Part shown: in pieces, positions 37,641-63,650 of the stretch
Layout of the letters: every line of letters starts with the position of its first letter
How positions within the stretch are numbered: position 1 is the stretch's first letter
Assembly (NCBI GenBank): GCA_016784145.1
Contig: JADHVF010000002.1
Location: 112,357-176,356 of the forward strand
DNA: 64,000 nucleotides
Source: Patescibacteria group bacterium
GTDB lineage: Bacteria; Patescibacteriota; Patescibacteriia; UBA2591; UBA6264
Direction of reading: 5' to 3'
Program-made: the position numbers and the translations under genes
The notes under the pieces: model-generated
What the model was told of the DNA's origin: nothing
Database searches by the model: none
Seen by the model: the letters and a program-made list of their open reading frames with translations, nothing else

Positions 37641-37642
37641 AA

Positions 37643-38305: not shown

Positions 38306-38314
38306 TTTTATTAT

Positions 38315-39340
38315 ATGACAAAAAAAAATACTAAAAAAAATGAGCAAAATAAAAGAGAAAAAGCAACTGAAAATGCCATTGAACAAATAAGGTCAAAATA
38401 TGGTGAAGGAACAATAATGAGATTAAGGGAGGCAAAGCATCAAGCAACCGAAGTTATTTCAACTGGTTGTCTTTCACTTGATTTAGCATTAGGAGTAGGT
38501 GGTATTCCCAGAGGAAGAGTGACAGAAATTTTTGGACAAGAGATGAGCGGCAAATCAACTTTAGCACTTCATATTATTTCGCAGGCACAGAAAAAAGGAG
38601 GAATAGCTGCTTTTATTGATGCAGAACATGCCTTAGATCCTCAATATGCAGAGAGAATAGGAGTTAAAATTAATGATATGTTTATTTCACAACCAGATAG
38701 TGGAGAGCAAGCTTTAGAAATAGTTGAAACGCTTGTTCGCTCAAACGGGGTAGATATTATTGTAGTTGATTCCGTGGCAGCTTTAACCCCTAGAAGAGAA
38801 ATAGAAGGAGAAATGGGAGACCATCATATTGGCTTACAAGCAAGATTAATGAGTCAGGGGTTAAGAAAATTAACTAGTATTATTGGTAGAACAAAAACGT
38901 GTGTAATTTTTATTAATCAAATTAGAATGAGAATAGGAGTATTTTTTGGTAATCCAGAAACAACCACCGGGGGTATGGCCTTAAAGTTTTATTCTTCAGT
39001 TAGAATACATGTTAAGAAATTAGCTCAAATTAAAAGAAAAGATGAAGTAATAGGAAATAGAGTTAGGGCTAAAATTGTTAAGAACAAAGTAGCCCCGCCG
39101 TTTAAAACTTGTGATTTTGAAATTATTTATAACGAAGGCATATCTTATGCAGGCGATTTAATTAATCTTGGAGCTACCCATGGGTTGGTTATTAAAACAG
39201 GGAATACATTAAGTTATGACAAAGCCAAACTTGGCGTTGGGTGGGAAAAAGCAAAGAATTTTTTAAGAGATAATCCTAAAACAGCTAATAAGCTTAAAAA
39301 AGAAATTTTAACAGAAATAAGCAAGCAAGCAACAGAGTAG
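38315..39340 (+). CDS. recA: Recombinase RecA
   Basis: [32 protein letters not shown], and fully conserved loops L1 and L2. Confidence 0.97.
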
Positions 39341-39499: not shown

Positions 39500-39545
39500 A
39501 ATATAAAAACCAAACAAATATTTTTTTGTTTGGTTATTGGTTATT
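39500..39545. terminator. Bidirectional rho-independent terminator between the convergent recA and Wzz-like genes
   Basis: AACCAAACAAA-tatttt-TTTGTTTGGTT: an 11-bp perfect stem flanked by an A-tract 5' and a T-rich tract 3'. Confidence 0.5.
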
Positions 39546-39616: not shown

Positions 39617-40597
39617 TTATTCTTCTTCTTTTTTAAAATATTCAGATCCAAAGGCATAAAATATTCCTGCAAACAATCCTAGTATGCCTCCAATCATCAC
39701 ATTTTGCTGTTTTTTCGGGCTGATTGGTGTTTCGGGTAAACTTGCCTCTACTTCTACTTCAGTAGGCTTGACTTCATAATTCTTTTCATGTTGTTTTTGC
39801 TGAATATCTTGCTCCAAGCTGATAAGTTTTTGTTCTAGGGTTAATAATTGAGCTTCTTTGTTTTCTTTTTGGTTTTTAGCTCCGGCTAAAAGATTAATAT
39901 AGCTTTGAGCAATTCTACCTTGTCCATCAGAATAAGCATTATTTCTTTTGTTAATTTCTTCTTCATATTTTTTGATATCTTGATCTAATCTCTCTAAGTC
40001 GGCTGTTGTTTTAACTTTGTCTTTATCTATTTTAGCTTTATCTAACTCAATTACACGTAATTCAGTATCAAGTGTTTTAGCTGCTTGAGCAAACATGTTT
40101 TCATGATAGGTTAACAAAATATCAGTCACAACCTTAACAATACTAACAGCTTTAGTAGGCGTATTGCTTTTCCCAATTATTTGAATGAATTGTGATTCTT
40201 GTTTGCCTTGATTAGGGTTGGCTATTTCAATCATTGATTTAATGTCATTGGTTGTTGATTGTTCTGAAAAATCAGTTGATGCTTGTAATTTGGTTCTTAT
40301 TTGTTTCAAGACAGTGTCTGTATTAAAGACGGATTTAATGTCTTCAAACTCTTGCAAGGTGGCATAAGAAAATCCTTTTTCTTTAGAAAGATAATTTTTG
40401 TTTTTGCCAATTTTAACTAAATTGCTGGCTTGATAAATAGGCGAGAGCATAAAACTAATTACAATAGAGATAATAATAGCAATTAAAAATATGCTTATAA
40501 TCTCTTTTTTTCTTTTTATAATGACATTAACATAATCTCTTAAGTCAATTTCATCTTCATGATATTGATTGTCTTGATCTTGATTTTCCATATTCAT
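39617..40597 (-). CDS. Polysaccharide co-polymerase / chain-length determinant (Wzz-like, PCP family)
   Basis: N-terminal TM helix, a long coiled-coil periplasmic region, and a C-terminal Gly-rich TM (VMIGGILGLFAGIFYAFG). Confidence 0.55.
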   Translation of the reverse strand: MNMENQDQDNQYHEDEIDLRDYVNVIIKRKKEIISIFLIAIIISIVISFMLSPIYQASNLVKIGKNKNYLSKEKGFSYATLQEFEDIKSVFNTDTVLKQIRTKLQASTDFSEQSTTNDIKSMIEIANPNQGKQESQFIQIIGKSNTPTKAVSIVKVVTDILLTYHENMFAQAAKTLDTELRVIELDKAKIDKDKVKTTADLERLDQDIKKYEEEINKRNNAYSDGQGRIAQSYINLLAGAKNQKENKEAQLLTLEQKLISLEQDIQQKQHEKNYEVKPTEVEVEASLPETPISPKKQQNVMIGGILGLFAGIFYAFGSEYFKKEEE

Positions 40598-40645
40598 ATA
40601 TTCTTATTATATTTATTATTTCTCTGTTTGTCAATATGCTGTTTT

Positions 40646-42520
40646 TTATTTAATATCAAGCAATTCTTTCATTTTTTTAACATCCATGTCTGCTAATGAT
40701 TGCTTTAATTCTTGTATTAGTTCTTTTATTTTAGTTTCATTAACTTTTTCAAGATGAGAAATAAATATTTTTTCATGCTTGGTTGGCTTTTCTTTGTCAA
40801 TCAGGATTTCTTCAAAAAGTTTTTCCCCCTGTCTAATCCCGCTATAAATAACAGGGATATCAATATCCGGTTCATAGCCAGCTAATTTAATCATTTCTTT
40901 GGCCAAATCAACAATTTTAATGGCTTGTCCCATGTCTAGTACAAAAACTTCACCACCTTGTCCAATTGCGCCTGACTGCATTATTAATAGACAAGCTTCA
41001 GCAGTAACCATAAAATATCTTTTCATCTCAGGATGAGTTACTTCAACTGGCCCACCTGTTTTGATTTGATTTTCAAATATTTTAACAACATTCCCTTGAG
41101 AGTCAAGAACATTTCCAAAGCGAACAGCAGAAAATTTTGTTTGGTTTTTGCTATTTAAACAGACACATATCATTTCACATATTCTTTTACTAGCTCCCAT
41201 TACAGAGGTTGGATTAATTGCTTTGTCAGTAGAAACCATTACAAATTTTTCAATTTTATTTTTAATAGAAGCTTGACCAACAGTTAAAGTACCAAAAATA
41301 TTATTTTTAATAGCTTCGTCCGGGTTTGATTCCATCATTGGTACATGTTTGTAGGCAGCTGCATGAAATACTATCTCTGGTTGATGTTTTTTAAATACAT
41401 TGTTAATTTTATTTTTATCACAAATATCAGCAATAATAAATATTTTACTGGCATCAGGGAATAATCTGTTTAATTTTTTTTCTAAATAAAATATAGCTGT
41501 TTCTCTTTGGTCTAAAGCTATTATTTTTTTAGGAGCAAATTTAATAATTTCTTCACATAACTGAGAGCCAATCGAACCAGCTGCTCCTGTTATTAAAATA
41601 GTTTTGTTGTTGATATAAGATTGGATTGCTTGAGTATCAATTTTTACTGGTTGACGTCCTAACAGGTCTTCAATAGAGATTTCTCTCAAATCTTTTAAGC
41701 TAATCTTTTCATCTAAAATTTCAGCCGTGCTAGGCAAGATTTTAATTTTTTGAATGCCTGCTTCGCGGCTAAGATTAACAGTATTTTTAATTATTTTTTT
41801 AGAAGCAGATGGCAAAGCAATTATTATCTCTTTTATTTGATGTTTTTTAATAATAACAGGTATATTTTTAATTCTTCCCAAAACTTTTATGCCATGAATT
41901 AATATATTTTGTTTCATGTGGTTGTCGTCAACAAATCCAACTGGCAGATAGGGGGTATTACCAGAAACAGTAATATGACGGGCTAATTGTTCGCCAGCTT
42001 CTCCAGCTCCGACAATAAGAACACGCTTCCCATTTTTTTTATTATTTGTCACCCCATTTTTAAATAAATGAGCATAAACTCTTTTAGCAAACCTAAATCC
42101 GCCAGTAGTTAGCAGACATAAAAACCCAGACACAAAGATAATTGAACGGGGAAAGCCGGTAAAGATTGTTTTGTCTCTAAAAATAAATAAAATGGCTCCA
42201 ATTGTTAAAAAGCCAATCATTACTGCTCTGAATAATTTTAATAATTCTCTAATGCTTATAAATGACCATGAAATAGAATAAAGTTTTTCCAGCGAAAATA
42301 AAAAAAGAATTATAGGCAAGCTCATGGCCACAAACCCTTTAATCATGGTATAATATTCAATAGGAATTTTTCCATCAAATCGTAATAAAAATCCTAAATA
42401 ACAAGCTAAAGAAATTAGAATAATATCAGTTACAACAAAAAAAATAGTTCTTTTTAAAGTTGTTCTTTCCCAAATTTTATCTTTTATTGTCATAAAATTT
42501 TTGAATTGATTTAATAACAT
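40646..42520 (-). CDS. Membrane-bound UDP-sugar 4,6-dehydratase/epimerase (CapD/PglF/WbpM family)
   Basis: N-terminal TM helices, two Rossmann folds (VLIVGAGEAGEQL, ILITGAAGSIGSQLCEEI), and SDR catalytic residues. The probable start is the Met at 42493. Confidence 0.85.
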   Translation of the reverse strand: MLLNQFKNFMTIKDKIWERTTLKRTIFFVVTDIILISLACYLGFLLRFDGKIPIEYYTMIKGFVAMSLPIILFLFSLEKLYSISWSFISIRELLKLFRAVMIGFLTIGAILFIFRDKTIFTGFPRSIIFVSGFLCLLTTGGFRFAKRVYAHLFKNGVTNNKKNGKRVLIVGAGEAGEQLARHITVSGNTPYLPVGFVDDNHMKQNILIHGIKVLGRIKNIPVIIKKHQIKEIIIALPSASKKIIKNTVNLSREAGIQKIKILPSTAEILDEKISLKDLREISIEDLLGRQPVKIDTQAIQSYINNKTILITGAAGSIGSQLCEEIIKFAPKKIIALDQRETAIFYLEKKLNRLFPDASKIFIIADICDKNKINNVFKKHQPEIVFHAAAYKHVPMMESNPDEAIKNNIFGTLTVGQASIKNKIEKFVMVSTDKAINPTSVMGASKRICEMICVCLNSKNQTKFSAVRFGNVLDSQGNVVKIFENQIKTGGPVEVTHPEMKRYFMVTAEACLLIMQSGAIGQGGEVFVLDMGQAIKIVDLAKEMIKLAGYEPDIDIPVIYSGIRQGEKLFEEILIDKEKPTKHEKIFISHLEKVNETKIKELIQELKQSLADMDVKKMKELLDIK

Positions 42521-43601
42521 ATTTCACTTGAGAAATAGTTAATTCTGGATACATTGGCAAAGACAATACTTGTTTACATATTTCTTCTGTTTTTGATAAA
42601 TATATCTTGTTTGGCATTAAAATAGGCTCTTTGTAAGTAGGGGCTGGCCAGGAAATCAATGTTTCTATTTTGGCTTCTTTGTCCAGATATTTTTTTAATT
42701 TGTCTCTATTAGTTGATTGAATAACATAATTTTGCCAGACATCAAAAAATTTTGAATCTTCAAAATTAGGAGTATTTATTTCTGAAATATCTTTTAATCC
42801 ATCATTATATAGTTTGGCAATTTGTTGTCGTTTTTTTATCCATGTTGGCAGATATTTTAATTTAATATCCAGTAATCCTGCTTGAACATTGTCTAATAAG
42901 GCAGTATAGCCATGAAAGTAAAACTTTCTGTTTTGTCTATCTTCGCCATTATAGCGTAATAGACGTATTTTCCTAGCGATTTTATCGTCATTGGTTGTAA
43001 CCATACCAGCATCACCAAATGCCCCGAGCATTTTAAATGGATACATTGAAAAGCAGCCTGTTATTCCGAATGTGCCAGCTTTTTTCCATTTATTTTTAAT
43101 TTTCATTTTAGCTCCAATTGCTTGGGCAGCATCTTCGACAACTATTAAATTATATTGCTTAGCAATTTTCATTATTTTTTCCATATCACACATCCTTCCA
43201 TTTAAATGGACAGGCAGAATAGCTTTTGTTTGTTTTGTTATGTTCTTGACTATTAAATCAGTATTCATATTGAAATCTTCGCCAACATCAATAAGTTTTG
43301 CTTCAGCATTTTGATGATAAATACAAGAAATACTAGCCATAAAAGTATGTCCAACAGTAATTACTTTGTCTTGCTTTTTTAGTCCAACTGCTTCCAGGGA
43401 AAGGGTTAGTGCATCTGTTCCAGAATTAACACCAATAGCATGCTTAACACCAATATATTTAGCAAAGTTTTTTTCAAATTTGACTAAATCTTGTCTCATA
43501 ATTAAATCTCCTCTTGAGAAAATATCATCAATTTTCTTAAGAAATTTTTTGCGATGGTCTTTGTATTGTTTTTCAGGATTAACAAATCGTACTTTATACA
43601 T
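42477..43601 (-). CDS. DegT/DnrJ/EryC1/StrS-family PLP-dependent sugar aminotransferase
   Basis: Family-typical N-terminus ...GVKHAIGVNSGTDALTLSL and the Lys-containing motif; 374 aa. Confidence 0.88.
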   Translation of the reverse strand: MYKVRFVNPEKQYKDHRKKFLKKIDDIFSRGDLIMRQDLVKFEKNFAKYIGVKHAIGVNSGTDALTLSLEAVGLKKQDKVITVGHTFMASISCIYHQNAEAKLIDVGEDFNMNTDLIVKNITKQTKAILPVHLNGRMCDMEKIMKIAKQYNLIVVEDAAQAIGAKMKIKNKWKKAGTFGITGCFSMYPFKMLGAFGDAGMVTTNDDKIARKIRLLRYNGEDRQNRKFYFHGYTALLDNVQAGLLDIKLKYLPTWIKKRQQIAKLYNDGLKDISEINTPNFEDSKFFDVWQNYVIQSTNRDKLKKYLDKEAKIETLISWPAPTYKEPILMPNKIYLSKTEEICKQVLSLPMYPELTISQVKYVIKSIQKFYDNKR

Positions 43602-43603
43602 AA

Positions 43604-44602
43604 TTATTTTAATAATTGTTTTACTTTTTTAATAATATCTTTGTAGGTTGTGTAATATTTCTTTTCAAGAGGGGCACTGGTTGGGGCAGGAGAATCAGGC
43701 AAGCAGACTCTTTTGATTGGTTTTTTTAGATACTTGAATCCTTTATCAGCAACCAAAGCAGAAATCTCTCCAGCAACTCCGCCAGTAAGCCAGGCTGCCT
43801 CAGCAATAATTAATTTCCCTGTTTTTTTAATAGAATTAATAATAATTGGGAGGTCTATTGGTTTAACAGTTCTGATATCAATTATTTCAGCATCAATTTT
43901 ATATTTTTTTAATTCTTCGCCTGCTTTTATGGCTTCATTGGCCATATACGATATTCCAACAATTGTGATATCTTTGCCTTTTTTTCTTATTACCCCTTTT
44001 CCAATTGGAACAGAGTATATTTTTTTTGGAACATTTTCTTTCAGTCCATAAAGCCATCTATCATCAATATATACTACAGGATTATTTGATTTAATGGCTG
44101 ATATCATTAATCCTTTAGCATCATATGGAGTAGCTGGCATTACAACTTGTAGTCCAGGAATATGAGCAAATAAAGATTGGAGTGCTTGAGAATGTTGGGC
44201 TCCTTGTTCACCTCCACGATTAATAATAGGCCAAATTACAACTGATGCGGTTGATTGTCCACCAAAAATATAGTCCCAATTAGCCGCTTGGTTTATTATT
44301 GGGTCTAATCCATAAATCATAAAATCCATTCTTGGATGAACTACAATTGGTCTCATGCCAGCAATACTTGCTCCAATGCCAGCTCCAGTAATAGCATTTT
44401 CAGAAACAGGTGTATCAATTACTCGTTCTTCTCCGTATTTTTCTAATAACCCATTACAAGTATTTCCAACATACCAGGGGCTTTTAACTCCTTGTCCAAT
44501 TAAAAAGACAGATTTGTCTTGACCCATTGCCTGATGGATTGCTTCATTAATTGCCAAACTATAAGTTAATAATCTTTGGTTTTTTTTATTTTTCATATAC
44601 AT
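43604..44602 (-). CDS. Thiamine-diphosphate-dependent 2-oxoacid dehydrogenase E1 beta-like subunit (transketolase pyrimidine-binding plus C-terminal domains)
   Basis: Transket_pyr motifs (VFLIGQGV, GIGASIAGMRPIVV) and a C-terminal transketolase_C fold. It is adjacent to an E1 alpha-like gene. Confidence 0.8.
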   Translation of the reverse strand: MYMKNKKNQRLLTYSLAINEAIHQAMGQDKSVFLIGQGVKSPWYVGNTCNGLLEKYGEERVIDTPVSENAITGAGIGASIAGMRPIVVHPRMDFMIYGLDPIINQAANWDYIFGGQSTASVVIWPIINRGGEQGAQHSQALQSLFAHIPGLQVVMPATPYDAKGLMISAIKSNNPVVYIDDRWLYGLKENVPKKIYSVPIGKGVIRKKGKDITIVGISYMANEAIKAGEELKKYKIDAEIIDIRTVKPIDLPIIINSIKKTGKLIIAEAAWLTGGVAGEISALVADKGFKYLKKPIKRVCLPDSPAPTSAPLEKKYYTTYKDIIKKVKQLLK

Positions 44603-45563
44603 GTTTTAATAATTCTCCTTGTTTTGGAAAATCACTTTTAAGTGTTAATTTATATGCTTTAATAATTTTTGAATTTAATTTTTTATATATATTGTTAATT
44701 GTTTGTTTGTTTAAAATATTTTTTTTCATTAATATTTTCTCAAAATTTTTAATTGGATCTTTTTTAGCCCATTTAATAACTTCTTTATTTGGTCTAATAT
44801 CAGTGTGTTCTCCTTGGATATTGTCATCAGGGCCAACATGTCCTCTCATTCGATATGTTAAGCACTCAATAAAAGAAGGCCCTTGGTTATTTTTGGCATA
44901 CTTTACCATGGTTTTAGTTGTGTTATAAACTTTTAAGACATCATTCCCTTGTACTTGTTTGGAAGGCATGTTATATGACTTGGCAAATTCATAGATTTTA
45001 GTATTAGCCAGACAATCTTTTATTGGCATGTGAGTTGAATATAGGTTATTTTCACAAACAAAAATAATTGGCAATTTTTTTAAAGAAGCAAAGTTTAATG
45101 ATTCATGTAAGACTCCTTCATCAACTGCTCCGTCGCCAAAAAAACTAATTGTTACTTTTTTGTCTTTGTTTATTTTTGATGATAAAGCTGCACCCAAAGC
45201 AAGCGAAATTGTAGCAGCTACCAACGGAACTGTTCCTAATAATCCGTGCTGGTTGTCAATTATATGCATTGACCCTCCTCTTCCTTTTGCACAGCCATCT
45301 TTTTTTCCAAAAATTTCAAGCATTAATTTATCAATGCTTCCTCCTTTGGCCAGATAATGTCCATGAGACCGATGATTTCCAAGAATATAATCATTGTCTG
45401 TTAAAGCAGCACAAACGCCAACAGCAACTGCTTCTTGTCCTGTATATAAATGGCAGGGAGTTTTAATTTCGCCTCTTAGAATTGGATCAACTAGACTTTC
45501 TTCAAACAACCTTATTTCTACCATTTTTTTATATAATTTTAATAAAAATTTTTTGTTTTCCAT
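44586..45563 (-). CDS. Thiamine-diphosphate-dependent 2-oxoacid dehydrogenase E1 alpha-like subunit
   Basis: E1_dh motifs GQEAVAVG, NHRSHGH, FFGDGAVDEG...LPIIFVCENNLYS (ThDP-binding GDG...N). Confidence 0.82.
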   Translation of the reverse strand: MENKKFLLKLYKKMVEIRLFEESLVDPILRGEIKTPCHLYTGQEAVAVGVCAALTDNDYILGNHRSHGHYLAKGGSIDKLMLEIFGKKDGCAKGRGGSMHIIDNQHGLLGTVPLVAATISLALGAALSSKINKDKKVTISFFGDGAVDEGVLHESLNFASLKKLPIIFVCENNLYSTHMPIKDCLANTKIYEFAKSYNMPSKQVQGNDVLKVYNTTKTMVKYAKNNQGPSFIECLTYRMRGHVGPDDNIQGEHTDIRPNKEVIKWAKKDPIKNFEKILMKKNILNKQTINNIYKKLNSKIIKAYKLTLKSDFPKQGELLKHVYEK

Positions 45564-45564
45564 A

Positions 45565-46158
45565 TTAATTTTTGATAATTTTTTTAATTGTTTTGAAAAT
45601 TATTTTTAAATCATTTAAAAATGACATTTGTTTGACATATTTTATTTGTAGTTTAACTTTTTTTGGTCTTATTTCTTCTAAATAAGTTTTTTCAGGGTCA
45701 TGGCTATTTTTTAAGATTTCTCCTTCATTAGAATTCCATAATGATGCCAAGTCAGTTATTCCTGGTCTTATATTAAAGATAATTTGTTCGTCCTCTTTAT
45801 ATAGTTTAGCATATTCAGGCACTTCTGGTCTAGGGCCAACCAAGCTCATTTCTCCCTTAATTACATTAAATAACTGAGGAAGTTCATCAATTTTGTATTT
45901 TCTTAAAAATTTTCCTGTTTTAGTTAATCGTATGTCATTATTAGGAGTCGAAGGCCCTCCTATTTTATTAGCATTTAAAACCATTGTACGAAACTTATAA
46001 ACATTAAATGGTTTTTTATTTTTACCAATACGAATTCCTTTATAAATAACAGGGCCATTAGATGTTATTTTTATTAGCATTGTAATGATAATAAAAACAG
46101 GGGATAGAATAATTATCCCTATTAAGGAAAAACAAATATCAAAAATTCGTTTAATCAT
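45565..46158 (-). CDS. Small monotopic phosphoglycosyl transferase (Bac_transf family, PglC/WbaP C-domain-like); probably the initiating sugar-1-P transferase
   Basis: N-terminal re-entrant helix and the conserved MSLVGPRPE / ...RPG.T motifs. Confidence 0.85.
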   Translation of the reverse strand: MIKRIFDICFSLIGIIILSPVFIIITMLIKITSNGPVIYKGIRIGKNKKPFNVYKFRTMVLNANKIGGPSTPNNDIRLTKTGKFLRKYKIDELPQLFNVIKGEMSLVGPRPEVPEYAKLYKEDEQIIFNIRPGITDLASLWNSNEGEILKNSHDPEKTYLEEIRPKKVKLQIKYVKQMSFLNDLKIIFKTIKKIIKN

Positions 46159-46934
46159 TTTTTTGAAAAAATAAAGACAATCTTAAAAGCATATTTTTTA
46201 ATCCAGTTATTTTTTAATAATATATAATCTATTTTATCTAAAAATTTGAATATTTTTTTCCCTATTAAAAAATTTCTAAATGGGAACAAAAACATTGCTA
46301 ATAAATGAAAATAAGATATTTTTTCTATATTAAAATATTTTTTAGCAAATTTTAAATCTTTGTCTTTAATAATATGCTCCACTGCCCACTTGGTTCTAAT
46401 TCCTCTTTTTTTATTTAGCCATCGCTTTATATTTATTAAGGGGTTATGTCCAAAGGTTTCTATGCCAATTAATTTTCCATTTGATTTTAAGATTCTATTT
46501 AATTCAGGGAATGCTTTTTTTATATTAAGAGAAGAAAATGTCCCTCCATCCCATATAATATCAAAATAATTATCAGGAAATTCAGTCTTTTCGCAATCTC
46601 CTTTAATAAATTTTATTTTGTGGTTTATTTTTTCTTGTTCGGCTCTTTTTTTTGCGATTTGTAATGATTTGTTTGATAAATCAATACCATAAACTTTTGC
46701 TCCTAATTTTGCCAGCAAAATAGAATGCATGCCATGCCCACAACCATAATCTAAGATTTTCATATTAGAAGTGATATTTTGTTTCAACCAGTTTTTACAA
46801 AAATTATAACTTAAAAGCATGTTAATATTATAATTTTCAATATCTTTGTCCCAGTTATTTTTATTTTTTTTCTTGATCCATCTTTCAGATAATTTTTCAT
46901 AGTGAGAAATTTCCTCTTTTTTTCTTTGTTTCAT
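46155..46934 (-). CDS. Class I SAM-dependent methyltransferase (paralog A)
   Basis: SAM motif ILDYGCGHG...GAKVYGIDLS. The C-terminal half is paralogous to the ORF at 48220-49002 (shared EFPDNYFDII, RTKW..H...K). Confidence 0.8.
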   Translation of the reverse strand: MKQRKKEEISHYEKLSERWIKKKNKNNWDKDIENYNINMLLSYNFCKNWLKQNITSNMKILDYGCGHGMHSILLAKLGAKVYGIDLSNKSLQIAKKRAEQEKINHKIKFIKGDCEKTEFPDNYFDIIWDGGTFSSLNIKKAFPELNRILKSNGKLIGIETFGHNPLINIKRWLNKKRGIRTKWAVEHIIKDKDLKFAKKYFNIEKISYFHLLAMFLFPFRNFLIGKKIFKFLDKIDYILLKNNWIKKYAFKIVFIFSKK

Positions 46935-46938
46935 TTTT

Positions 46939-48210
46939 TTATAACTTATATGCTTCTTTTTTCCATTGAATAGCCCATTTTTTTAATCTTTGAAATCCTT
47001 TTTTTATATCTTTTGCTTCTCCGGCAAAAGAAAATCTTAAATGTCCTTCACCACTTGGCCCAAAGGCTGCTCCAGGGATAGTAATAATATGGGCTTGCTT
47101 TAAGATTTTTAAACTTAACTTAAATGAATCAACTTTAGGTATTTTTATCTTGACCAAAATATAGTAAGCCCCCATTGGTGGTTGGTATTCAAAAATATCC
47201 GAGAGATTGTCTAACTCAGAGCACATTAAATTTCTATTAAAAGACATTTTTTTGGTTAATTCTTTAATTGTTTTGGCTGATTGGTCCTTGTTTTTAAGGG
47301 CAGTTATTATTGCTTTTTGAGAAATAGCTGGCGCACAAATAGTCAGAGCATCATGTACTTTAAGCATGTGGTCAATAATCCCTTCATCAGCAAAAGTATA
47401 CCCAATTCTGTATCCAGTTACTCTGTATTTTTTAGAAAAACTACCGCAAAGAATAATTTGATTTCTTATATTAGGAATAGAAGCAGGTGATATATGTTTG
47501 ATATTGTCATAAATAAGGAAATCATAAGTTTCGTCAGTAATTAATATTAAGTTGTGTTTTTTAACAAATTTAGATAATTCTATTATTTCTTTTTTTGAAA
47601 AAACTTTTCCTGTAGGATTAGATGGATGACTGAGAATAATTGCTTTTGTTTTTTTGCTTATTTTTTTTTCACATTTTTTTATGTTTAATGCCCAATTTTT
47701 CTTTTCGTCTAAAAAAACAAATTTAGGGATGCCATTAAACTGTATTATTTGTTCAATATGAGATGCAAAAGCAGGGGAGATAACCAATACTTCATCGCCA
47801 GGATCTATAATTGTGGCTAATGCGCAAGCTAATCCTTCTTGTGCTCCAGTAGAAATCATTATCTCTTTTTTTGCCTTGATATTGGTTATTTTTTTTTCTT
47901 TTTTTAAAAAATTAGCCACCAGTTCCCTTAATTCAGTGATGCCTGGCTCAAGAGTATAAAAAGCAGTTGTTTTTTTATCTAAAGATTTTTTAATTCCTTG
48001 TTTTATATAATCAGGAGTATCTAAATGGGGGATACCTTGTCCAAAAGAGATAATTTTATTTTGCCCAATTTTTTCTTCTATTTGGTCTGCCAAAATAGAC
48101 ATTTCTTTAATAGGGGAAATAACTATTTTTTGTACTCTTTTTGAAATATTTTTAGTCCTAAATTTTTTTCCAGCTATTGCAATTGCTGAGCGAGATTGTT
48201 TCTTTTTCAT
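46939..48210 (-). CDS. Class I/II (fold-type I) PLP-dependent aminotransferase
   Basis: HPSNPTG, SFSKKY..TGYRIGY (PLP-binding Lys); 423 aa. Confidence 0.8.
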   Translation of the reverse strand: MKKKQSRSAIAIAGKKFRTKNISKRVQKIVISPIKEMSILADQIEEKIGQNKIISFGQGIPHLDTPDYIKQGIKKSLDKKTTAFYTLEPGITELRELVANFLKKEKKITNIKAKKEIMISTGAQEGLACALATIIDPGDEVLVISPAFASHIEQIIQFNGIPKFVFLDEKKNWALNIKKCEKKISKKTKAIILSHPSNPTGKVFSKKEIIELSKFVKKHNLILITDETYDFLIYDNIKHISPASIPNIRNQIILCGSFSKKYRVTGYRIGYTFADEGIIDHMLKVHDALTICAPAISQKAIITALKNKDQSAKTIKELTKKMSFNRNLMCSELDNLSDIFEYQPPMGAYYILVKIKIPKVDSFKLSLKILKQAHIITIPGAAFGPSGEGHLRFSFAGEAKDIKKGFQRLKKWAIQWKKEAYKL

Positions 48211-48219
48211 ATTATTTTT

Positions 48220-49002
48220 TTATTTTTTTGGATTAGAAAGGATAAAAACAGTTTGCCAGGCCAGCCATTTTATAATTGGAATTCTAAGTATTATTGAATC
48301 AATTTTTTCAAAAAATGTTAAAACAAAATTAAATATTTTTAAATTTCGAAAAGGTACAGCTAATACAGTAAAAAGGTGAAAGAATTTAATATCATCAATT
48401 TTGTTGAAATATTTTTTTGCATCCATTATAGCTTTTTTGTTCAAAATATGGTTCATTTCCCATTTTGTTCTTAAATGGGGTGTTAATTTTCTATATAAAT
48501 GAAAAATTGGATTATATACAAGCGGTTCATTACATATGATTTTCCCATTTGGTTTAATAACCCTTTTTAATTCTATATATGCTTTGTTTATGTCAAGATG
48601 ATGTAACATTCCAATGCATGTAATAATATCAAAATAATTATCTGGGAATTCAAGCTTTTCAGCATCCATAATTAAAAAAATTGGCTTCTTTTTGATATTA
48701 TTATTGGCTGCTGATTTTTTACAATTTTGAATAGAGACATCAGAGATATCTATGCCAAATGAATAAGCATTATTTTTTGCTAAAAAAATAGCCATATCCC
48801 CATCTCCACAACAATAATCTAGTGTTTTTTTATTAGAACAGTTTTTAATTAACCAATTATTAACAAAATTTCTACTTTTTCTAGTGATTGAATATATTTT
48901 TTTATTTGAAGTTAAGTGTTTATGTTGAGATGCATTCTTTTCTAATTTTTTATCTCTGACTTTGTTATGAAATGTTTTTTCTTCATGTTTTCTTTTTTCC
49001 AT
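48220..49002 (-). CDS. Class I SAM-dependent methyltransferase (paralog B)
   Basis: SAM motif LDYCCGDGDMAIFLAKNNAYSFGIDIS; paralogous to the ORF at 46155-46934. Confidence 0.8.
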   Translation of the reverse strand: MEKRKHEEKTFHNKVRDKKLEKNASQHKHLTSNKKIYSITRKSRNFVNNWLIKNCSNKKTLDYCCGDGDMAIFLAKNNAYSFGIDISDVSIQNCKKSAANNNIKKKPIFLIMDAEKLEFPDNYFDIITCIGMLHHLDINKAYIELKRVIKPNGKIICNEPLVYNPIFHLYRKLTPHLRTKWEMNHILNKKAIMDAKKYFNKIDDIKFFHLFTVLAVPFRNLKIFNFVLTFFEKIDSIILRIPIIKWLAWQTVFILSNPKK

Positions 49003-49006
49003 ATTT

Positions 49007-50011
49007 TTATTTTAAAGATAATTTAATTAATCCAATTAATGCCCCCATGGCATAACCAAAATGACGACAAGCAAAAGTAATAGGCATTAAAATCAAATAT
49101 TTTATATTTTTTTCTTTATAGGCAATATTAATAGAAAAAAATAGATTTAATAATAAATACAATATAATTATAAACGAGAATAAAAACCAGCTAAAAGAAT
49201 AAAAAATTCCTAATAATCCAGTAAATGTTAAATACAAAACAAAAATTAAAGGGATATAATGTCTTGCTTTAAAAGGTAATTTAACGAATTTTAATGGATA
49301 AATAGACCAAATGCCATCTTGAATATTATGAATAAAAAATTCTTTTAAAGTTGATTTTGGATAGTAGCATGATATTATATCTGGATTTAGAATAATTTTT
49401 CCACCAGCTTTTTTTAATCTTATATTTAATTCCATATCCTGACTTCTCACAAGATTTTCGTTAAATAGTCCAATTTTTTTAAATACATCCTTTTGATAAC
49501 ATCCACCAAATACAGTGTCAACTTCTTTAATTTTACTTAATCCTTTTCTAAAATGTGAACCACCTACGCCAAAAAAACCAGAAAGACAAGTAACAATGGC
49601 TTTAGCTGAAATAGTATTTTCTCGTGGGATTGTTTTTAATATTCCACCGATATTGTCAGCATTATATTCAATTAAAGTTTCAACGCATTTAGAAACATAA
49701 TTTTTTTTATATCCAGCATGAGCATCCATTATCATTGTAATTTCTCCTTTTGCTTTTTCTATGCCAATATTTAGCGCAAATGGTTTGGTTATTTTTTTGT
49801 TAATTAATAATTGAATAGAATGATATTTTTTAGAATATTCTTTTATGATCGACCTTGTTTTGTCATTACTCATTCCATCAATCACTAAAACTTCTATTTT
49901 ATTTTTAAGATAGTTTTGCCAAAGAATAGAATCTAGGCATTTTTTAATAAATTTTTCTTCATTTCTGCAAGGAATTATTATTGAAACAAATGGTAATTTA
50001 TCTTTATTCAT
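49007..50011 (-). CDS. Family-2 glycosyltransferase with a C-terminal membrane anchor
   Basis: VSIIIPCRNEE, DGMSNDKT (DxD), and C-terminal TM helices. Confidence 0.8.
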   Translation of the reverse strand: MNKDKLPFVSIIIPCRNEEKFIKKCLDSILWQNYLKNKIEVLVIDGMSNDKTRSIIKEYSKKYHSIQLLINKKITKPFALNIGIEKAKGEITMIMDAHAGYKKNYVSKCVETLIEYNADNIGGILKTIPRENTISAKAIVTCLSGFFGVGGSHFRKGLSKIKEVDTVFGGCYQKDVFKKIGLFNENLVRSQDMELNIRLKKAGGKIILNPDIISCYYPKSTLKEFFIHNIQDGIWSIYPLKFVKLPFKARHYIPLIFVLYLTFTGLLGIFYSFSWFLFSFIIILYLLLNLFFSINIAYKEKNIKYLILMPITFACRHFGYAMGALIGLIKLSLK

Positions 50012-50013
50012 AT

Positions 50014-51246
50014 TTATTTTTCAAAAATGATATTTATATTTTTTATTTCAAGCCAGTTTTTTTTGTTTTTAGGTTGATAGTTAATTCCAATACTAATATT
50101 AGAAATGCCAGGCCTAAATTTTTTCTTAATAGAATATTTCTTCCATTCAAGAGAATTTATTATGGTTGAATTTCTTTCCCATTCGTCTGTTTTGTCTTGA
50201 ATAAAAATTGAAGCAGAGGTTTTGTCTGATGATATTCTGGCAAAAACATTGAATGTCGCAATAATATTCTCTGGGCTTTGAATGTTTCCGCCATTAATTC
50301 CAAATTGAATAACAGATTGTTCAGAAGTATGTGGTTTTATTAATTGTATTTTTACAATATTATCATTTTTTTCTTTTGTTCTTTGAAAGGAAAAATTTCC
50401 TCTATTTCCTGACAAAATTAATGGAGGAGATGTTTTGGTTAATTCTTCCATTGTTATTTTATCAGGTCCACTCCATATAGAAAAATCATTTTTATATTCA
50501 TCAATTTTTATTAGATTTTTTTTATTTTGTGATATATCTAGTATGAATAATGTTTTTCCATTGTGTTTTATACTTTTTATTTTTTGAGCAGAAGGAAAAT
50601 ATCTATAGATAATTTTTTCATTGTCTGTTAAAACTTGATTTCCATTAATTTTGTCTAAAAGATTAGTTTCTTTTTTTATAAATGATATATTTTTTTTAAT
50701 TAAGTTTTCATTTAGATATTGTGACTTGTATTTAGCGTCAAATATTCTTTTATATTTTTCATCAAAAAATATTCTATATATCCATAAAATGCGATCTGAA
50801 TTATTATGTTTGTTCCATTCTTCAATATAGATGCTAAATTTTTTATCTGGAACCATATTTAAAATAGGAGCATTTTGATAAAAGAAATTGGATTCTTCTC
50901 TATCAAAATCAGCTTTTTTAAAGGCAAGGCCTCCATTAAAAAATGAAAGTAGAAAAGAAGAAATAAAAATAAATAAAATTAATGATTTGGTTGTTTTTGA
51001 TATTAAAAGATAAATTAAAGCGCCAAATAAAATTATTGGACCAAATGAATATAATTTATTAATTATTGTTGGATAATTTAATAAGGTTGACCCATAAATA
51101 TCAAGCGGTTGCAAGTAATTGTAACTATAATTAAATGTTTTTACAGGACTATATTTAATCCCAATTTTAATCCCAAGCACTATTAAAATTAATGTTAAGA
51201 TTAAAACAATAGTTAGTAAATGCTTGCTGATATTTTTTTTATTCAT
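50014..51246 (-). CDS. Hypothetical membrane protein (three N-terminal TM helices plus a roughly 300-aa extracytoplasmic domain); possibly the periplasmic partner or domain of the adjacent GT-C glycosyltransferase
   Basis: Hydrophobic helices at about residues 10-27, 67-83 and 88-105. It overlaps the upstream gene by 8 nt. No recognisable catalytic motifs. Confidence 0.4.
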   Translation of the reverse strand: MNKKNISKHLLTIVLILTLILIVLGIKIGIKYSPVKTFNYSYNYLQPLDIYGSTLLNYPTIINKLYSFGPIILFGALIYLLISKTTKSLILFIFISSFLLSFFNGGLAFKKADFDREESNFFYQNAPILNMVPDKKFSIYIEEWNKHNNSDRILWIYRIFFDEKYKRIFDAKYKSQYLNENLIKKNISFIKKETNLLDKINGNQVLTDNEKIIYRYFPSAQKIKSIKHNGKTLFILDISQNKKNLIKIDEYKNDFSIWSGPDKITMEELTKTSPPLILSGNRGNFSFQRTKEKNDNIVKIQLIKPHTSEQSVIQFGINGGNIQSPENIIATFNVFARISSDKTSASIFIQDKTDEWERNSTIINSLEWKKYSIKKKFRPGISNISIGINYQPKNKKNWLEIKNINIIFEK

Positions 51247-52261
51247 TTTTGGTTGTATTTTTAATTAAATCAGATAAATATATCGCTAATCCTAGACAAG
51301 TAAATACGTAGGCTGTATAAATATAGCTAGGAATAGCTGGTCCATTTGCCTTTAATATGCTTATAATGATTATATTTCCCCAAGCAAAAAGAAATAAATT
51401 TCTAGTTTTTTCTTTTTTATATGCTTTAACAACAATAAACAATGCAATTAGAGGGAAATATTTGATTGACAATAGAGTTTTATAAAAATATCCAGCATTA
51501 GTACCATAATGAGGGTTATTTATTGCATTAATATTAGAAATAAGACCATTGTTCCCAAAAAAGAATTGATTATATACATTTACAAAAGATTGCCAATTAT
51601 ATAATGAAATAAATAGTAAAACGATAATAATGGTTCCTAAGATCATGCCAGTTATAAATTGTTTTAATTTTTTCCAATCTTTTTTATAAATAATATGTCC
51701 AAGAAAAAATAGGGGAGCCATTATTCCAGTTGCTTTTGTTAGTGTTGCCAATGAAGCAAATATTCCTGAAATTAAGATTGAGTTAAAATATTTTTTTTCT
51801 TTTATGTTTGAAAAATAAAAGAAAAATGAGATTAAGCAATAAAGAGCGACTGTTTGGTCTGGATATAAATATGTTCCCCAGCCAAGCATTAAATAAGAAG
51901 AATTTATAAATAAGCCAATTAATAATGATGCCCATATCCCTGATTTTTTAAAAGCCCAAAGCATTGATATGGATAAAATTAGAGAATTAATGAATCCTAT
52001 ATATACCATCCCTGCAATATATATTTTTGAAAAGAAAATCGTGAATAATTTAAGATTTACTGCCAGGCTTATTCTGTCTAGCCAAGGCCAATATCCATAT
52101 GTTGTCCCCCAGGCAGCAGATCCTAGATATTGCAATGGGTCTGATGGAGTTGGTAGGGTCCAAAAATATTTTATTAAGTGAGTAATGTATAATATAACAA
52201 ACAAAAGTAATACCATGTATATTTGTTTATTATTATTTGTAATTTTGCTTATAATTTTCAT
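51239..52261 (-). CDS. GT-C-fold polytopic membrane glycosyltransferase (ArnT/PMT_2-like)
   Basis: About ten TM helices. The first extracytoplasmic loop carries an acidic PSDP motif, and the length and layout fit the TM core of PMT_2 / GT39 / GT83 proteins. Confidence 0.5.
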   Translation of the reverse strand: MKIISKITNNNKQIYMVLLLFVILYITHLIKYFWTLPTPSDPLQYLGSAAWGTTYGYWPWLDRISLAVNLKLFTIFFSKIYIAGMVYIGFINSLILSISMLWAFKKSGIWASLLIGLFINSSYLMLGWGTYLYPDQTVALYCLISFFFYFSNIKEKKYFNSILISGIFASLATLTKATGIMAPLFFLGHIIYKKDWKKLKQFITGMILGTIIIVLLFISLYNWQSFVNVYNQFFFGNNGLISNINAINNPHYGTNAGYFYKTLLSIKYFPLIALFIVVKAYKKEKTRNLFLFAWGNIIIISILKANGPAIPSYIYTAYVFTCLGLAIYLSDLIKNTTKNE

Positions 52262-55564: not shown

Positions 55565-56122
55565 TTATTCTCTTTTTTTAATTACCTTGCATGGTACACC
55601 AACAGCGATTGAATATGGAGGAATATTCTTAGTAACAACAGCCCCTGCTCCAATTATTGATCCTTTTCCAATTTTTACTCCTTTGTTTATAATGACATGT
55701 CCTCCAATCCAAACATCGTCTTCAATAATTACTTTTCCTATAATAAATCCTTGTTCAGCGATTAATTTATCAGAATCTGTTTTATGGTCAGCAGTATTAA
55801 TCATTGTTCTAGCTGCGATTCTTACTCCTTTGCCAATCTTTACTTCCCCTGTTCCATCAATGATTACCCCTTCATTTAAAGAACACTTTTCTCCAATTTT
55901 TACATTCCAGGGGAAATAAATATTAACCATTTCTCCGATATAAGATGTTTTTAAATTTCTTCCCATGAATAATTTTAAAACAAGATAACGAAGATAATTA
56001 CATAAAGGGAATGGAATATATTTAACCATTCCATACAAAGCAAAATAAATTGCATGAATGAAATAATTTTTAAAATTATGCATTTTATTTCTTGGAAGAT
56101 ATTTTGTTTTTTTTGAATTCAT
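55565..56122 (-). CDS. Hexapeptide-repeat (left-handed beta-helix) acyl/acetyltransferase
   Basis: C-terminal hexad repeats ([42 protein letters not shown]) and a terminal ...GVPCKVIKK. The probable start is the Met at 56122, not 56215. Confidence 0.8.
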
Positions 56123-56127
56123 TTTTA

Positions 56128-63644: not shown

Positions 63645-63650
63645 AATTTT

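What the first reader, a model, noticed from the sequence alone, without database searches (positions are those of the whole stretch)
46155..49002. Methyltransferase-aminotransferase-methyltransferase cassette with duplicated SAM-MTases
Two clearly paralogous class I SAM-dependent methyltransferases (shared blocks LDYGCG, EFPDNYFDII, RTKW..H, PFRN) flank a fold-type I (AspAT-class, not DegT-class) aminotransferase. An aminotransferase of that class is unusual in a nucleotide-sugar pathway. The arrangement suggests stepwise N- or O-methylation of an aminated intermediate (for example an N,N-dimethyl or N-methyl/O-methyl sugar), or synthesis of a non-sugar substituent that is later attached to the glycan.
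Basis: inference. Interest (0 to 1): 0.55.

Follow-up and report, generated by a model that had tools for sequence, protein, structure and literature searches.

The report
Accessory genes in CPR glycan module
The two methyltransferase genes and the aminotransferase gene are real, but they are not one working cassette: each is an independent optional add-on to a widely conserved, uncharacterised surface-sugar gene module of Patescibacteria, whose core includes an unexpected thiamine-dependent enzyme.

Summary
Three tightly spaced minus-strand genes encode MT1 (48220-49002), a class I aminotransferase, AT (46939-48210), and MT2 (46155-46934). MT1 and MT2 are 46% identical (E 1e-54).

The cassette interpretation is only partly supported. 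In 15 non-redundant related loci with 5 kb or more on both sides, the AT travels with:
- a DegT sugar aminotransferase (15/15);
- a thiamine (TPP) enzyme, either E1 alpha/beta or a split transketolase-like pair (14/15);
- a PglC-like phosphoglycosyl transferase (14/15);
- a PglF-like 4,6-dehydratase (13/15).

Methyltransferases of this family are absent in 5/15. The closest AT relatives (79-81% identity) have none. Five of five loci found through MT homologues read GT2-MT-PGT-TPP-DegT-PglF and have no class I AT.

MT1 and MT2 belong to two old sister clades. Loci with two MTs carry one of each, so two different methylations are plausible.

The AT keeps the alpha-carboxylate arginine, and 67%-identical orthologues stand alone in DPANN archaea. 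It is therefore probably an ordinary amino-acid:2-oxoacid transaminase. I infer that it regenerates glutamate for DegT and supplies the 2-oxo acid used by the TPP enzyme. The chemistry is untested. The conserved TPP-containing module is the more interesting object.

The parts
48220..49002 (-). MT1: class I SAM methyltransferase of the MT1 clade. Motif I is the variant LDYCCGDG.
   Evidence: ORF. Pfam PF08241, E 1.2e-20. 46% identical to MT2. Groups with L050, L068 and L079 MTs that share LD[YF][CA]CGDG. Keeps all family-invariant residues.
46939..48210 (-). Class I (AspAT-type, subgroup Ib-like) PLP aminotransferase with a conserved basic N-terminal extension.
   Evidence: PF00155, 195 bits. 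Nearest solved structures are P. horikoshii ArAT/AspAT 1DJU/1GD9, E 1e-67. K260, N198, D226, Y229, R268 and R392 are invariant in 24 orthologues. Co-located with DegT, TPP enzyme, PglF and PGT.
46155..46934 (-). MT2: class I SAM methyltransferase of the main clade. Motif I is LDYGCGHG.
   Evidence: PF08241, E 2e-22. 735 homologues with E <= 1e-10; every source name given is a Patescibacteria-group lineage or simply 'bacterium'. AF2 model pLDDT 90, Rossmann fold plus helical cap. Best Foldseek hits are the sugar O-MTs AtmM and RebM.
45565..46158 (-). Small monotopic (PglC-like) phosphoglycosyl transferase.
   Evidence: PF02397, E 1.6e-62. IDELPQL (Asp-Glu pair) and GPRP are visible in the translation. 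Conserved in 14/15 full loci.
44586..45563 (-). TPP enzyme, E1 alpha-like subunit.
   Evidence: PF00676, E 8e-70. Scores 320 bits against TIGR03182, cut-off 394. GDG...NN TPP motif in the translation. Replaced in other loci by a split transketolase/DXS-like pair.
43604..44602 (-). TPP enzyme, E1 beta-like subunit.
   Evidence: PF02779 and PF02780. 1W85_B E 9e-65, with the His128 equivalent (H137) retained.
42477..43601 (-). DegT/DnrJ/EryC1-type nucleotide-sugar aminotransferase.
   Evidence: PF01041, 312 bits. Nearest named solved structures are QdtB, Aminotransferase WbpE and 2OGA (E 1e-60 to 1e-54); PglE-type 1O61 scores only 1e-28. Present in 15/15 full loci.
40646..42520 (-). PglF/CapD-like membrane-anchored NDP-HexNAc 4,6-dehydratase.
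   Evidence: PF02719, 364 bits, plus CoA_binding_3. Present in 13/15 full loci.
49007..50011 (-). GT2 glycosyltransferase, the usual upstream neighbour of the MT/PGT genes.
   Evidence: PF00535, E 1.6e-25. 50-67% identical orthologues lie upstream of MT or PGT in many loci.
39617..40597 (-). Wzz-like chain-length determinant, the last gene of the cluster.
   Evidence: ORF. 43% identical to the gene called PF02706 Wzz in L001. A terminator-like hairpin lies at 39508-39535.

Best explanation
The three genes lie inside a roughly 25 kb Patescibacterial surface-glycan operon. They are two kinds of optional accessory gene attached to one conserved core module.

The core is GT2, a PglC-like phosphoglycosyl transferase, a two-subunit TPP enzyme (E1 alpha/beta-like here, split transketolase/DXS-like elsewhere), a DegT aminotransferase and a PglF-like 4,6-dehydratase. 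This core makes and lipid-links a modified amino-deoxy-HexNAc that starts the glycan.

The class I AT is an ordinary alpha-amino-acid:2-oxoacid transaminase recruited into the operon. I infer that it converts an amino acid plus 2-oxoglutarate into a 2-oxo acid plus L-glutamate. That would regenerate the amino donor consumed by DegT. It would also deliver the 2-oxo acid (most simply pyruvate, from alanine) that the TPP enzyme decarboxylates and, by analogy with Plm8/9 and AviB1/B2, condenses onto the 4-keto sugar.

MT1 and MT2 are soluble small-molecule methyltransferases from two old sister clades. They tailor the module's sugar at two different positions or in two successive steps.

Shown: gene identities, the co-occurrence pattern, the independence of AT and MT, and the two MT clades. 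Inferred: AT substrates, the coupling to DegT and the TPP enzyme, C-branching, and the methyl acceptor.
For: - Co-occurrence. In 15 non-redundant AT loci with 5 kb or more on both sides: DegT 15/15, TPP enzyme 14/15, PGT 14/15, PglF 13/15. MT anywhere within +/-10 kb: 10/15, and two MTs in 1/15.
- Gene order. The commonest order is PGT-TPPa-TPPb-AT-DegT-PglF. DegT is the immediate downstream neighbour of the AT in 24 of 48 informative clusters.
- MT-anchored loci. L089-L093 all read GT2-MT-PGT-TPP-DegT-PglF with no class I AT.
- Close relatives. At 79-81% AT identity the orders are GT2-AT-PGT-E1 or TK-AT-DegT with no MT.
- AT chemistry. PLP Lys K260 and the alpha-carboxylate Arg R392 are invariant. 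The nearest structures are archaeal aromatic/aspartate aminotransferases. 67%-identical orthologues stand alone in DPANN archaeal contigs, and a 59% orthologue stands alone in a bacterial contig. The enzyme therefore works without the glycan genes.
- TPP precedent. E1 alpha/beta-like pairs attach a pyruvate-derived C2 branch at C4 of NDP-4-keto-6-deoxyhexoses (PMC4802897).
- MTs. There are two clades, and paired loci carry one of each. The family is 43% identical end to end across loci. The AF2 model resembles the sugar O-MTs AtmM and RebM best. The MTs are not UbiE-family members.
Against: - No biochemical data exist for any member.
- The TPP enzyme occurs without the AT (5/5 MT-anchored loci), and the AT occurs once without the TPP enzyme (L059). 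The proposed 2-oxo-acid hand-off is therefore not obligatory.
- If the TPP enzyme branches C4, the keto group that DegT aminates is unclear.
- The nearest solved relatives of this DegT include enzymes I know as C3-aminotransferases, and no 3,4-ketoisomerase is conserved.
- E1 beta keeps the His used for lipoyl acylation and its C-terminal domain, so a true dehydrogenase role with an E2 encoded elsewhere is not excluded.
- Foldseek scores for O-, C- and N-methyltransferases are nearly equal, so the methyl acceptor is unknown.
- The invariant basic N-terminal extension of the AT might bind an anionic, non-standard substrate.
Confidence: 0.5

Rival explanations
1. First reader's model. MT-AT-MT is one cassette: the class I AT aminates a sugar or precursor, and the two MTs then N-methylate that amine stepwise to give an N-methyl or N,N-dimethyl group.
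For: The three genes are adjacent with gaps of 4-9 nt in the window. The two MT clades pair one of each. AT and MT are also adjacent in L015-L018, L075, L066 and L067.
Against: AT and MT are independent. 5/15 AT modules have no MT. 5/5 MT-anchored modules have no AT. The nearest relatives lack MTs. The AT keeps the alpha-carboxylate Arg and occurs alone in archaea. A DegT enzyme already supplies sugar amination. DesVI/TylM1-type N,N-dimethyltransferases do not appear among the named sequence or fold hits.
Confidence: 0.1
2. The TPP enzyme and the AT together build a non-sugar amine or amino-alcohol substituent: 2-oxo acid to aldehyde or acyloin to amine. This follows the logic of 2-aminoethylphosphonate synthesis or of serinol phosphate made by Cj1437. 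The substituent is N-methylated by the MTs and then attached to the glycan.
For: The AT lies next to the TPP enzyme in most loci. Phosphoethanolamine N-methyltransferases are among the sequence and fold hits of MT2. A non-DegT transaminase serves a capsule substituent in C. jejuni (PMC12096443).
Against: No ligase or transferase for attaching such a group is conserved in the module. The TPP enzyme is present without the AT in 5/5 MT-anchored loci. E1-type enzymes do not normally release free aldehydes (established enzymology, not tested here).
Confidence: 0.15
3. The AT and E1 alpha/beta are the first two steps of amino-acid breakdown (amino acid to 2-oxo acid to acyl group). They supply an unusual N-acyl group for the 4-amino sugar.
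For: E1 beta retains the His128 equivalent and its C-terminal domain. The window cluster also carries acyltransferases and acyl-CoA-type enzymes: hexapeptide transferase, AAC(3)-like, HpcH-like and MaoC-like.
Against: No E2, E3 or lipoyl protein appears in any of the roughly 90 loci. In most loci the TPP enzyme is a transketolase-like pair whose second subunit (about 165 aa) lacks the Transketolase_C domain. The acyltransferases are not conserved with the module.
Confidence: 0.1
4. The AT is simply the cell's general housekeeping transaminase. It sits in the glycan operon with no functional link to it.
For: Orthologues at 57-67% identity stand alone in archaeal and bacterial contigs: L094, L025, L069, L072. 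The position of the AT inside the module varies: between TPP and DegT, between GT2 and PGT, between the MTs, or on the opposite strand.
Against: The AT is co-located with DegT in 15/15 full loci across AT identities of 55-81%, despite extensive rearrangement. It is embedded in the operon with 4-10 nt spacers. Persistent linkage through rearrangement argues for selection.
Confidence: 0.15

Closest known systems
Campylobacter pgl-type initiation module (PglF dehydratase, PglE aminotransferase, PglD acetyltransferase, PglC phosphoglycosyl transferase) and the related AATGal module (WcfR/WcfS of Bacteroides fragilis)
   Same: It has a membrane-anchored Polysacc_synt_2 dehydratase, a DegT aminotransferase and a small monotopic PGT in one operon. 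UDP-HexNAc is the presumed starting point.
   Different: No PglD is conserved in the module. A two-subunit TPP enzyme occupies the space between the PGT and DegT. The DegT is closer to QdtB and WbpE than to the PglE-type 1O61. A class I AT and the MTs are optional extras.
E1 alpha/beta-like C-branching enzymes of deoxysugar pathways (Plm8/Plm9 for paulomycose, AviB1/AviB2 for eurekanate; functional analogue YerE for yersiniose)
   Same: A pyruvate-dehydrogenase-E1-like alpha/beta pair is encoded next to an NDP-sugar 4,6-dehydratase, with no E2 or E3 (PMC4802897).
   Different: Those enzymes are actinomycete natural-product enzymes acting on dTDP-deoxyhexoses. This module belongs to a cell-surface glycan cluster of CPR bacteria, is paired with a DegT and often a class I AT, and can use a transketolase/DXS-like pair instead. 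No direct sequence comparison with Plm/Avi proteins was possible.
Subgroup Ib aspartate/aromatic aminotransferases (P. horikoshii 1DJU/1GD9, T. thermophilus AspAT)
   Same: Full-length PF00155 match, all PLP and alpha-carboxylate residues present, E 1e-67 to 1e-45.
   Different: It has about 20 extra N-terminal residues with invariant S8, G14, R18 and N21. It is embedded in a glycan operon. It reaches no NCBIfam equivalog cut-off.
Sugar O-methyltransferases RebM/AtmM and other Methyltransf_11-type small-molecule MTs
   Same: Class I Rossmann fold with a helical cap. These are the best Foldseek hits: E about 1e-15, TM about 0.6.
   Different: Only 15-20% sequence identity. GPP C-MT, TleD, MitM and PEAMT score almost as well. 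The family has its own invariant cap residues: R171, R180, W183, H187.
Cj1437 of the C. jejuni HS:2 capsule locus (transaminates DHAP with L-glutamate to serinol phosphate)
   Same: A transaminase other than a DegT sugar aminotransferase, encoded in a polysaccharide locus and serving the glycan (PMC12096443).
   Different: Cj1437 works with an ATP-dependent amide ligase (Cj1438). No such ligase is conserved here. Homology between the two proteins was not tested.

Membership tests
Class I SAM-dependent methyltransferase (Methyltransf_11/25) | Pfam score above the gathering cut-off. | tested here: met
   MT1 74 bits and MT2 80 bits against a cut-off of 21.2.
Class I SAM-dependent methyltransferase (Methyltransf_11/25) | Glycine-rich motif I (D/E-x-G-x-G-x-G) and an acidic residue at the end of beta-2. 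| tested here: met
   MT2 has LDYGCGHG. MT1 has LDYCCGDG, where the first Gly is replaced; the variant is conserved in its clade. D85 and D113 are invariant in both clades.
Class I SAM-dependent methyltransferase (Methyltransf_11/25) | Seven-stranded Rossmann-like fold. | tested here: met
   The MT2 AF2 model has pLDDT 90.4. More than 1500 PDB methyltransferase-fold hits have E <= 1e-3. MT1 was not modelled.
UbiE/MenG quinone methyltransferases | NCBIfam or TIGRFAM score above the curated cut-off. | tested here: not met
   The MTs score 58-65 bits against cut-offs of 158-216. Their genomic context is always a glycan module.
NDP-aminosugar N,N-dimethyltransferases (DesVI/TylM1 type) | Closest sequence or fold similarity to solved DesVI/TylM1 structures. 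| tested here: inconclusive
   No entry named DesVI or TylM1 is among the 40 phmmer hits (E <= 1e-5) or the top 50 Foldseek hits. Generic MT similarity cannot exclude N-methylation.
Fold-type I, class I/II aminotransferase (PF00155) | Full-length Pfam match, PLP lysine, Asp-Tyr pair, Asn, and phosphate-binding Arg. | tested here: met
   195 bits over residues 52-408. K260, D226, Y229, N198 and R268 are invariant.
Fold-type I, class I/II aminotransferase (PF00155) | Arginine that binds the alpha-carboxylate of amino or oxo acids. | tested here: met
   R392, in HLRFSFA, is invariant in 24 orthologues. Its equivalence to AspAT Arg386 is my own knowledge.
DegT/DnrJ/EryC1 sugar aminotransferases (as a home for the 423-aa AT) | Full-length PF01041 match. 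| tested here: not met
   Only residues 116-226 match, at 37 bits. The neighbouring gene 42477-43601 is the true DegT, at 312 bits.
pgl-type diNAcBac module | PglF-like dehydratase, PglE-like C4 aminotransferase, PglD acetyltransferase and PglC-like PGT. | tested here: inconclusive
   PglF-like and PglC-like genes are present. The DegT is closer to QdtB and WbpE than to 1O61. A hexapeptide transferase lies at 55565-56215, but none is conserved in the module.
E1-like sugar C-branching enzymes (Plm8/9, AviB1/B2) | An E1 alpha/beta pair without E2/E3, next to an NDP-sugar 4,6-dehydratase. | tested here: met
   This holds in the window and in all E1-type loci. No E2 or E3 was seen in any locus.
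E1-like sugar C-branching enzymes (Plm8/9, AviB1/B2) | Phylogenetic grouping with Plm8/9 or AviB1/B2, and demonstrated transfer of a C2 unit to a 4-keto sugar. | not testable with these tools

The most novel reading that the evidence does not exclude
Patescibacteria widely make a cell-surface sugar of a kind not yet described in any glycan: a 6-deoxy-HexNAc carrying a TPP-installed two-carbon branch that is then aminated by DegT. Alanine would supply both the carbon (pyruvate) and, through glutamate, the nitrogen, in a closed loop run by the class I AT. The two MT clades would then methylate the product.
Probability: 0.2. Interest if true: 0.7.

Novelty: new variant of a known kind. Interest (0 to 1): 0.42.

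Why it matters
Patescibacteria (CPR) make up a large share of bacterial diversity and live attached to host cells, yet no structure of their surface glycans is known (my own knowledge; the literature searches here found nothing).

This analysis replaces a one-genome curiosity with a module found in dozens of distinct CPR contigs, with a defined core and defined optional parts. It shows that "pyruvate dehydrogenase E1" and "transketolase" genes in these reduced genomes can belong to glycan synthesis rather than central metabolism, which affects metabolic reconstructions. It also yields a small set of soluble enzymes (PglF-like, DegT, TPP pair, AT, MT1, MT2) whose chemistry can be reconstituted directly from UDP-GlcNAc.

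Tried and rejected
The alignment-based metagenome scan replaced it.
- Literature searches found nothing on this module: Patescibacteria plus bacillosamine, CPR plus E1 plus polysaccharide, O-antigen plus transketolase, and the monotopic-PGT survey paper. One search failed on a short term.
- The promoter and terminator scan was at chance level: 113 promoter-like sites against 112.5 expected, and 7 terminator-like sites against 7.7. It gives no operon boundaries apart from one perfect consensus promoter before wzz.
- I asked whether E1 beta had lost the lipoyl-acylation His. It has not, so this does not discriminate between roles.
- Foldseek on the MT2 model does not separate O-, N- and C-methyltransferases.
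- I considered a membrane anchor in the hydrophobic MT C-terminus and rejected it. In the model those residues form cap helices and the last beta-strand of the fold.
- I considered MT methylation of an acetamidino group made by the WbuX-like enzyme and rejected it. WbuX is not conserved with the MTs (0/15).
- I considered a phosphonate (AEP-type) pathway and rejected it. No gene annotated as PEP mutase appears among the annotated loci.


Full report
**1. Observation**

ORF listing confirms three minus-strand genes at the stated coordinates: MT1 48220-49002 (260 aa), AT 46939-48210 (423 aa) and MT2 46155-46934 (259 aa).

- Both MTs pass Pfam Methyltransf_11/25/31.
- The AT matches PF00155 over its full length (195 bits). 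Against the DegT family it matches only residues 116-226 (37 bits).
- MT1 and MT2 are 46% identical over 217 aa, E 1e-54.
- The blocks EFPDNYFDII, RTKW..H and PFRN are shared. LDYGCG is only in MT2; MT1 has LDYCCG.
- Neighbouring genes are separated by 1-9 nt or overlap by 4-17 nt (the DegT and PglF ORF calls overlap by 44 nt) along the run from GT2 through MT1, AT, MT2, PGT, E1a, E1b and DegT to PglF (coordinates).

**2. Setting**

The window has about 29% G+C. All named homologues of the AT and MT2 come from Patescibacteria lineages: Paceibacterota, Parcubacteria, Wolfebacteria, Nealsonbacteria, Uhrbacteria, Jorgensenbacteria and Wildermuthbacteria.

The finding lies in a minus-strand glycan cluster that runs from about 64 kb down to 39.6 kb. 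In transcription order the cluster contains:

- a MaoC-like gene (cut by the window end), an HpcH-like lyase, an AAC(3)-like N-acyltransferase and a DUF7033 protein;
- a 426-aa ORF with no Pfam match, a GT1, an epimerase, a GT2, a hexapeptide transferase and a Wzx-like flippase;
- a glutamine amidotransferase domain fused to a WbuX-type amidotransferase, a GT-C-like membrane protein and an unknown protein;
- GT2, MT1, AT, MT2, a PglC-like PGT, E1 alpha, E1 beta, DegT, a PglF-like dehydratase and Wzz.

On the other side lie recA, an HTH gene, ftsK and rpoBC.

**3. What travels with the AT**

Contexts of three AT homologues showed the same neighbours without flanking MTs: a TPP enzyme, DegT, PglF and a PGT. 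An alignment-based scan of metagenome contigs then gave 80 loci. I annotated them by BLASTP against the window's cluster proteins.

After collapsing loci at 90% AT identity, 60 clusters remain. Fifteen of these have 5 kb or more on both sides of the AT. Their content is as follows.

| Gene near the AT | Loci (of 15) |
|---|---|
| DegT | 15 |
| TPP enzyme, any type | 14 |
| TPP enzyme, E1 alpha/beta type | 6 |
| TPP enzyme, split transketolase/DXS-like type | 9 |
| PglC-like PGT | 14 (the remaining locus has a WecA-type transferase) |
| PglF-like dehydratase | 13 |
| GT2 | 8 |
| MT of this family, within 8 kb | 8 |
| MT of this family, within +/-10 kb | 10 |
| Two MTs | 1 (L050, which also carries both TPP types) |

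- The commonest gene order is PGT-TPPa-TPPb-AT-DegT-PglF.
- The closest relatives of the window AT differ from the window. At 81% identity the order is TKn-TKp-AT-DegT (L009). At 79-80% it is GT2-AT-PGT-E1a-E1b-DegT, with contiguous coordinates that leave no room for an MT (L010-L014, L019). At 68-70% it is GT2-AT-MT2-PGT (L015-L018).
- The window arrangement GT2-MT1-AT-MT2-PGT is therefore one state in a plastic series.

**4. What travels with the MTs**

Five MT2 homologues chosen only for long contigs all sit in the order GT2-MT-PGT-TPPa-TPPb-DegT-PglF. None of these loci has a class I AT in the module. AT and MT are thus independent accessories of one core.

- The MT of L003 is 43% identical to MT2 over 257 aa, so this is one family with a conserved C-terminal cap.
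- A neighbour-joining tree of 28 MTs splits them into two clades. The MT1 clade (window MT1, L050, L068, L079) has motif I LD[YF][CA]CGDG. The larger MT2 clade has LD[YFW]GCG[NHY]G.
- In all three loci with two MTs (the window, L050, L068) there is one from each clade. They are old paralogues with presumably distinct jobs, not a recent duplication.
- MT1 keeps every family-invariant residue.

**5. MT function**

- The AF2 model of MT2 (pLDDT 90.4) is a Rossmann fold with a helical cap. The hydrophobic C-terminus forms cap helices and the last strand, not a membrane anchor.
- Foldseek ranks the sugar O-methyltransferases AtmM and RebM first (E about 1e-15, TM about 0.6). GPP C-MT, TleD, MitM and phosphoethanolamine N-MTs follow within a factor of about 100.
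- The acceptor atom therefore cannot be read from the fold.
- Invariant basic and aromatic cap residues (R171, R180, W183, H187) would suit an anionic substrate such as a nucleotide sugar. This is inference.

**6. AT function**

- The nearest solved structures are P. horikoshii aromatic/aspartate aminotransferases (E 1e-67), followed by other subgroup Ib AspATs.
- No NCBIfam equivalog cut-off is reached.
- K260 (the PLP lysine), N198, D226, Y229, R268 and the alpha-carboxylate arginine R392 are invariant in 24 orthologues. So is a basic extension of about 20 residues at the N-terminus.
- Orthologues at 67% identity sit alone in contigs with archaeal markers (eIF-1A, NMD3, KH/PNO1). Orthologues at 57-59% sit alone in bacterial contigs.
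- Relatives at 42-43% identity have no module context.

The enzyme therefore functions without glycan genes, and its chemistry is that of an amino-acid:2-oxo-acid transaminase. Its linkage to DegT survives extensive rearrangement (15/15), which argues that it serves the module.

The simplest service, which I infer, is to regenerate L-glutamate from the 2-oxoglutarate released by DegT and to produce a 2-oxo acid for the TPP enzyme. With alanine as substrate, this would supply both the carbon donor and the nitrogen donor.

**7. The TPP enzyme**

- The window pair resembles PDH E1 alpha2beta2. E1 alpha scores 320 bits against TIGR03182, below its cut-off of 394.
- E1 beta keeps the His128 equivalent.
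- No E2 or E3 gene appears in any locus.
- In most loci the enzyme is a transketolase/DXS-like pair. Its second subunit, of about 165 aa, often lacks the Transketolase_C domain.
- E1 alpha/beta-like pairs next to NDP-sugar 4,6-dehydratases are known to add a pyruvate-derived C2 branch at C4 of 4-keto-6-deoxyhexoses: Plm8/9, AviB1/B2 and the kosinostatin pathway. YerE is a biochemically characterised analogue (PMC4802897).

I take this as the best available model. It leaves open which keto group DegT aminates. The module's DegT is closest to QdtB, Aminotransferase WbpE, 2OGA and 5U1Z (E 1e-54 to 1e-72). From my own knowledge these are C3-aminotransferases (2OGA being DesV and 5U1Z WlaRG). The PglE-type 1O61 scores only 1e-28. 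The single TPP-less locus, L059, carries a different DegT (31% identical) together with WbqC-like and PIG-L genes.

**8. Comparison and verdict**

The region works like a pgl/AATGal-type glycan-initiation module (dehydratase, aminotransferase, small PGT). It differs in three ways: a TPP enzyme is added, no conserved N-acetyltransferase is present, and there are two optional accessories (a class I AT and one or two MTs).

Non-DegT transaminases in polysaccharide loci have a precedent in Cj1437 (PMC12096443). 2-Oxo acids are also used on UDP-4-amino sugars, as in UDP-yelosamine (cited in PMC11257628).

- The view that the MTs are glycan tailoring enzymes is supported.
- The MT-AT-MT cassette logic is not supported.

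My confidence is about 0.85 that the AT belongs with the TPP/DegT/PglF/PGT module and is independent of the MTs. It is about 0.4 for the glutamate and 2-oxo-acid shuttle role, and about 0.25 for C-branching by the TPP enzyme.

I rate novelty as a new variant of a known kind and interest as moderate. The interest comes mainly from the conserved TPP-containing module, not from the cassette as described.

Noticed in passing
window 43604-45563 (-); also L003 8705-10004 and L050 5196-8902: A two-subunit TPP enzyme is a near-constant core part of this Patescibacterial glycan-initiation module. It is E1 alpha/beta-like in the window and a split transketolase/DXS-like pair elsewhere; L050 has both. 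No E2 or E3 gene was seen. Genes annotated as pyruvate dehydrogenase E1 or transketolase in CPR genomes may be glycan enzymes.
   Followed up: partly
window 61823-63995 (-): The upstream end of the cluster carries an AAC(3)/Antibiotic_NAT-family N-acyltransferase, an HpcH/HpaI (citryl/malyl-CoA-lyase-like) protein and a MaoC/mesaconyl-CoA-hydratase-like protein, the last cut by the window end. Together they look like a route to an unusual acyl-CoA for N-acylation of an amino sugar.
   Followed up: no
window 52263-54263 (-): A 666-aa fusion joins an N-terminal class II glutamine amidotransferase domain to a WbuX-type N-acetyl-sugar amidotransferase, which forms acetamidino groups. The WbuX score is 142 bits, below the 203-bit cut-off.
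   Followed up: no
L094 8001-9239 and L025 9974-11227: AT orthologues 67% identical to the window protein sit alone among archaeal genes (eIF-1A, NMD3, KH/PNO1, TrmB). One source names the organism Aenigmarchaeota. This suggests recent transfer between CPR bacteria and DPANN archaea.
   Followed up: partly
window 42477-43601 (-): The module's DegT aminotransferase is much closer to QdtB, Aminotransferase WbpE, 2OGA and 5U1Z (E 1e-54 to 1e-72) than to the PglE-type 1O61 (1e-28), although it follows a PglF-like 4,6-dehydratase. I know the closer set as C3-aminotransferases. No 3,4-ketoisomerase is conserved.
   Followed up: partly
L016 2371-3811; L050 8991-9968; L068 8134-9003; L079 6935-8894; L089 11346-12239: The module is a hotspot for insertions. 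L016 has an AbiE toxin-antitoxin pair on the same strand as the module. Other loci carry inositol-monophosphatase-family, aldo/keto-reductase and PP2C-like genes on the opposite strand, between TPP-beta and AT or DegT.
   Followed up: partly
window 35374-39340 (+) and L001 17431-21263: The cluster abuts recA, an HTH_25 gene and ftsK, both in the window and in a distant relative (L001, AT 68% identical). The chromosomal position of the module is therefore conserved.
   Followed up: no
window 40606-40634 (-) and 39508-39535: A perfect sigma-70 consensus (TTGACA-17-TATAAT) lies just upstream of wzz. An 11-bp hairpin that reads as a terminator on both strands lies between the convergent recA and wzz genes. 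Overall, promoter-like and terminator-like hits in the region are at chance level.
   Followed up: no
window 49007-52261 (-): A GT2, a 410-aa protein with no Pfam match, and a membrane protein with weak GT-C signatures (PMT_2 and GT87, both below cut-off) lie together. They resemble a Gtr/Arn-type system for glycosylation outside the membrane.
   Followed up: no
window 46939-48210 (-), residues 1-21 of the AT: A basic N-terminal extension with invariant S8, G14, R18 and N21 is conserved in all 24 aligned orthologues, including the archaeal one. The nearest solved aminotransferase aligns only from its residue 21 (AT residue 47). Its role is unknown.
   Followed up: no
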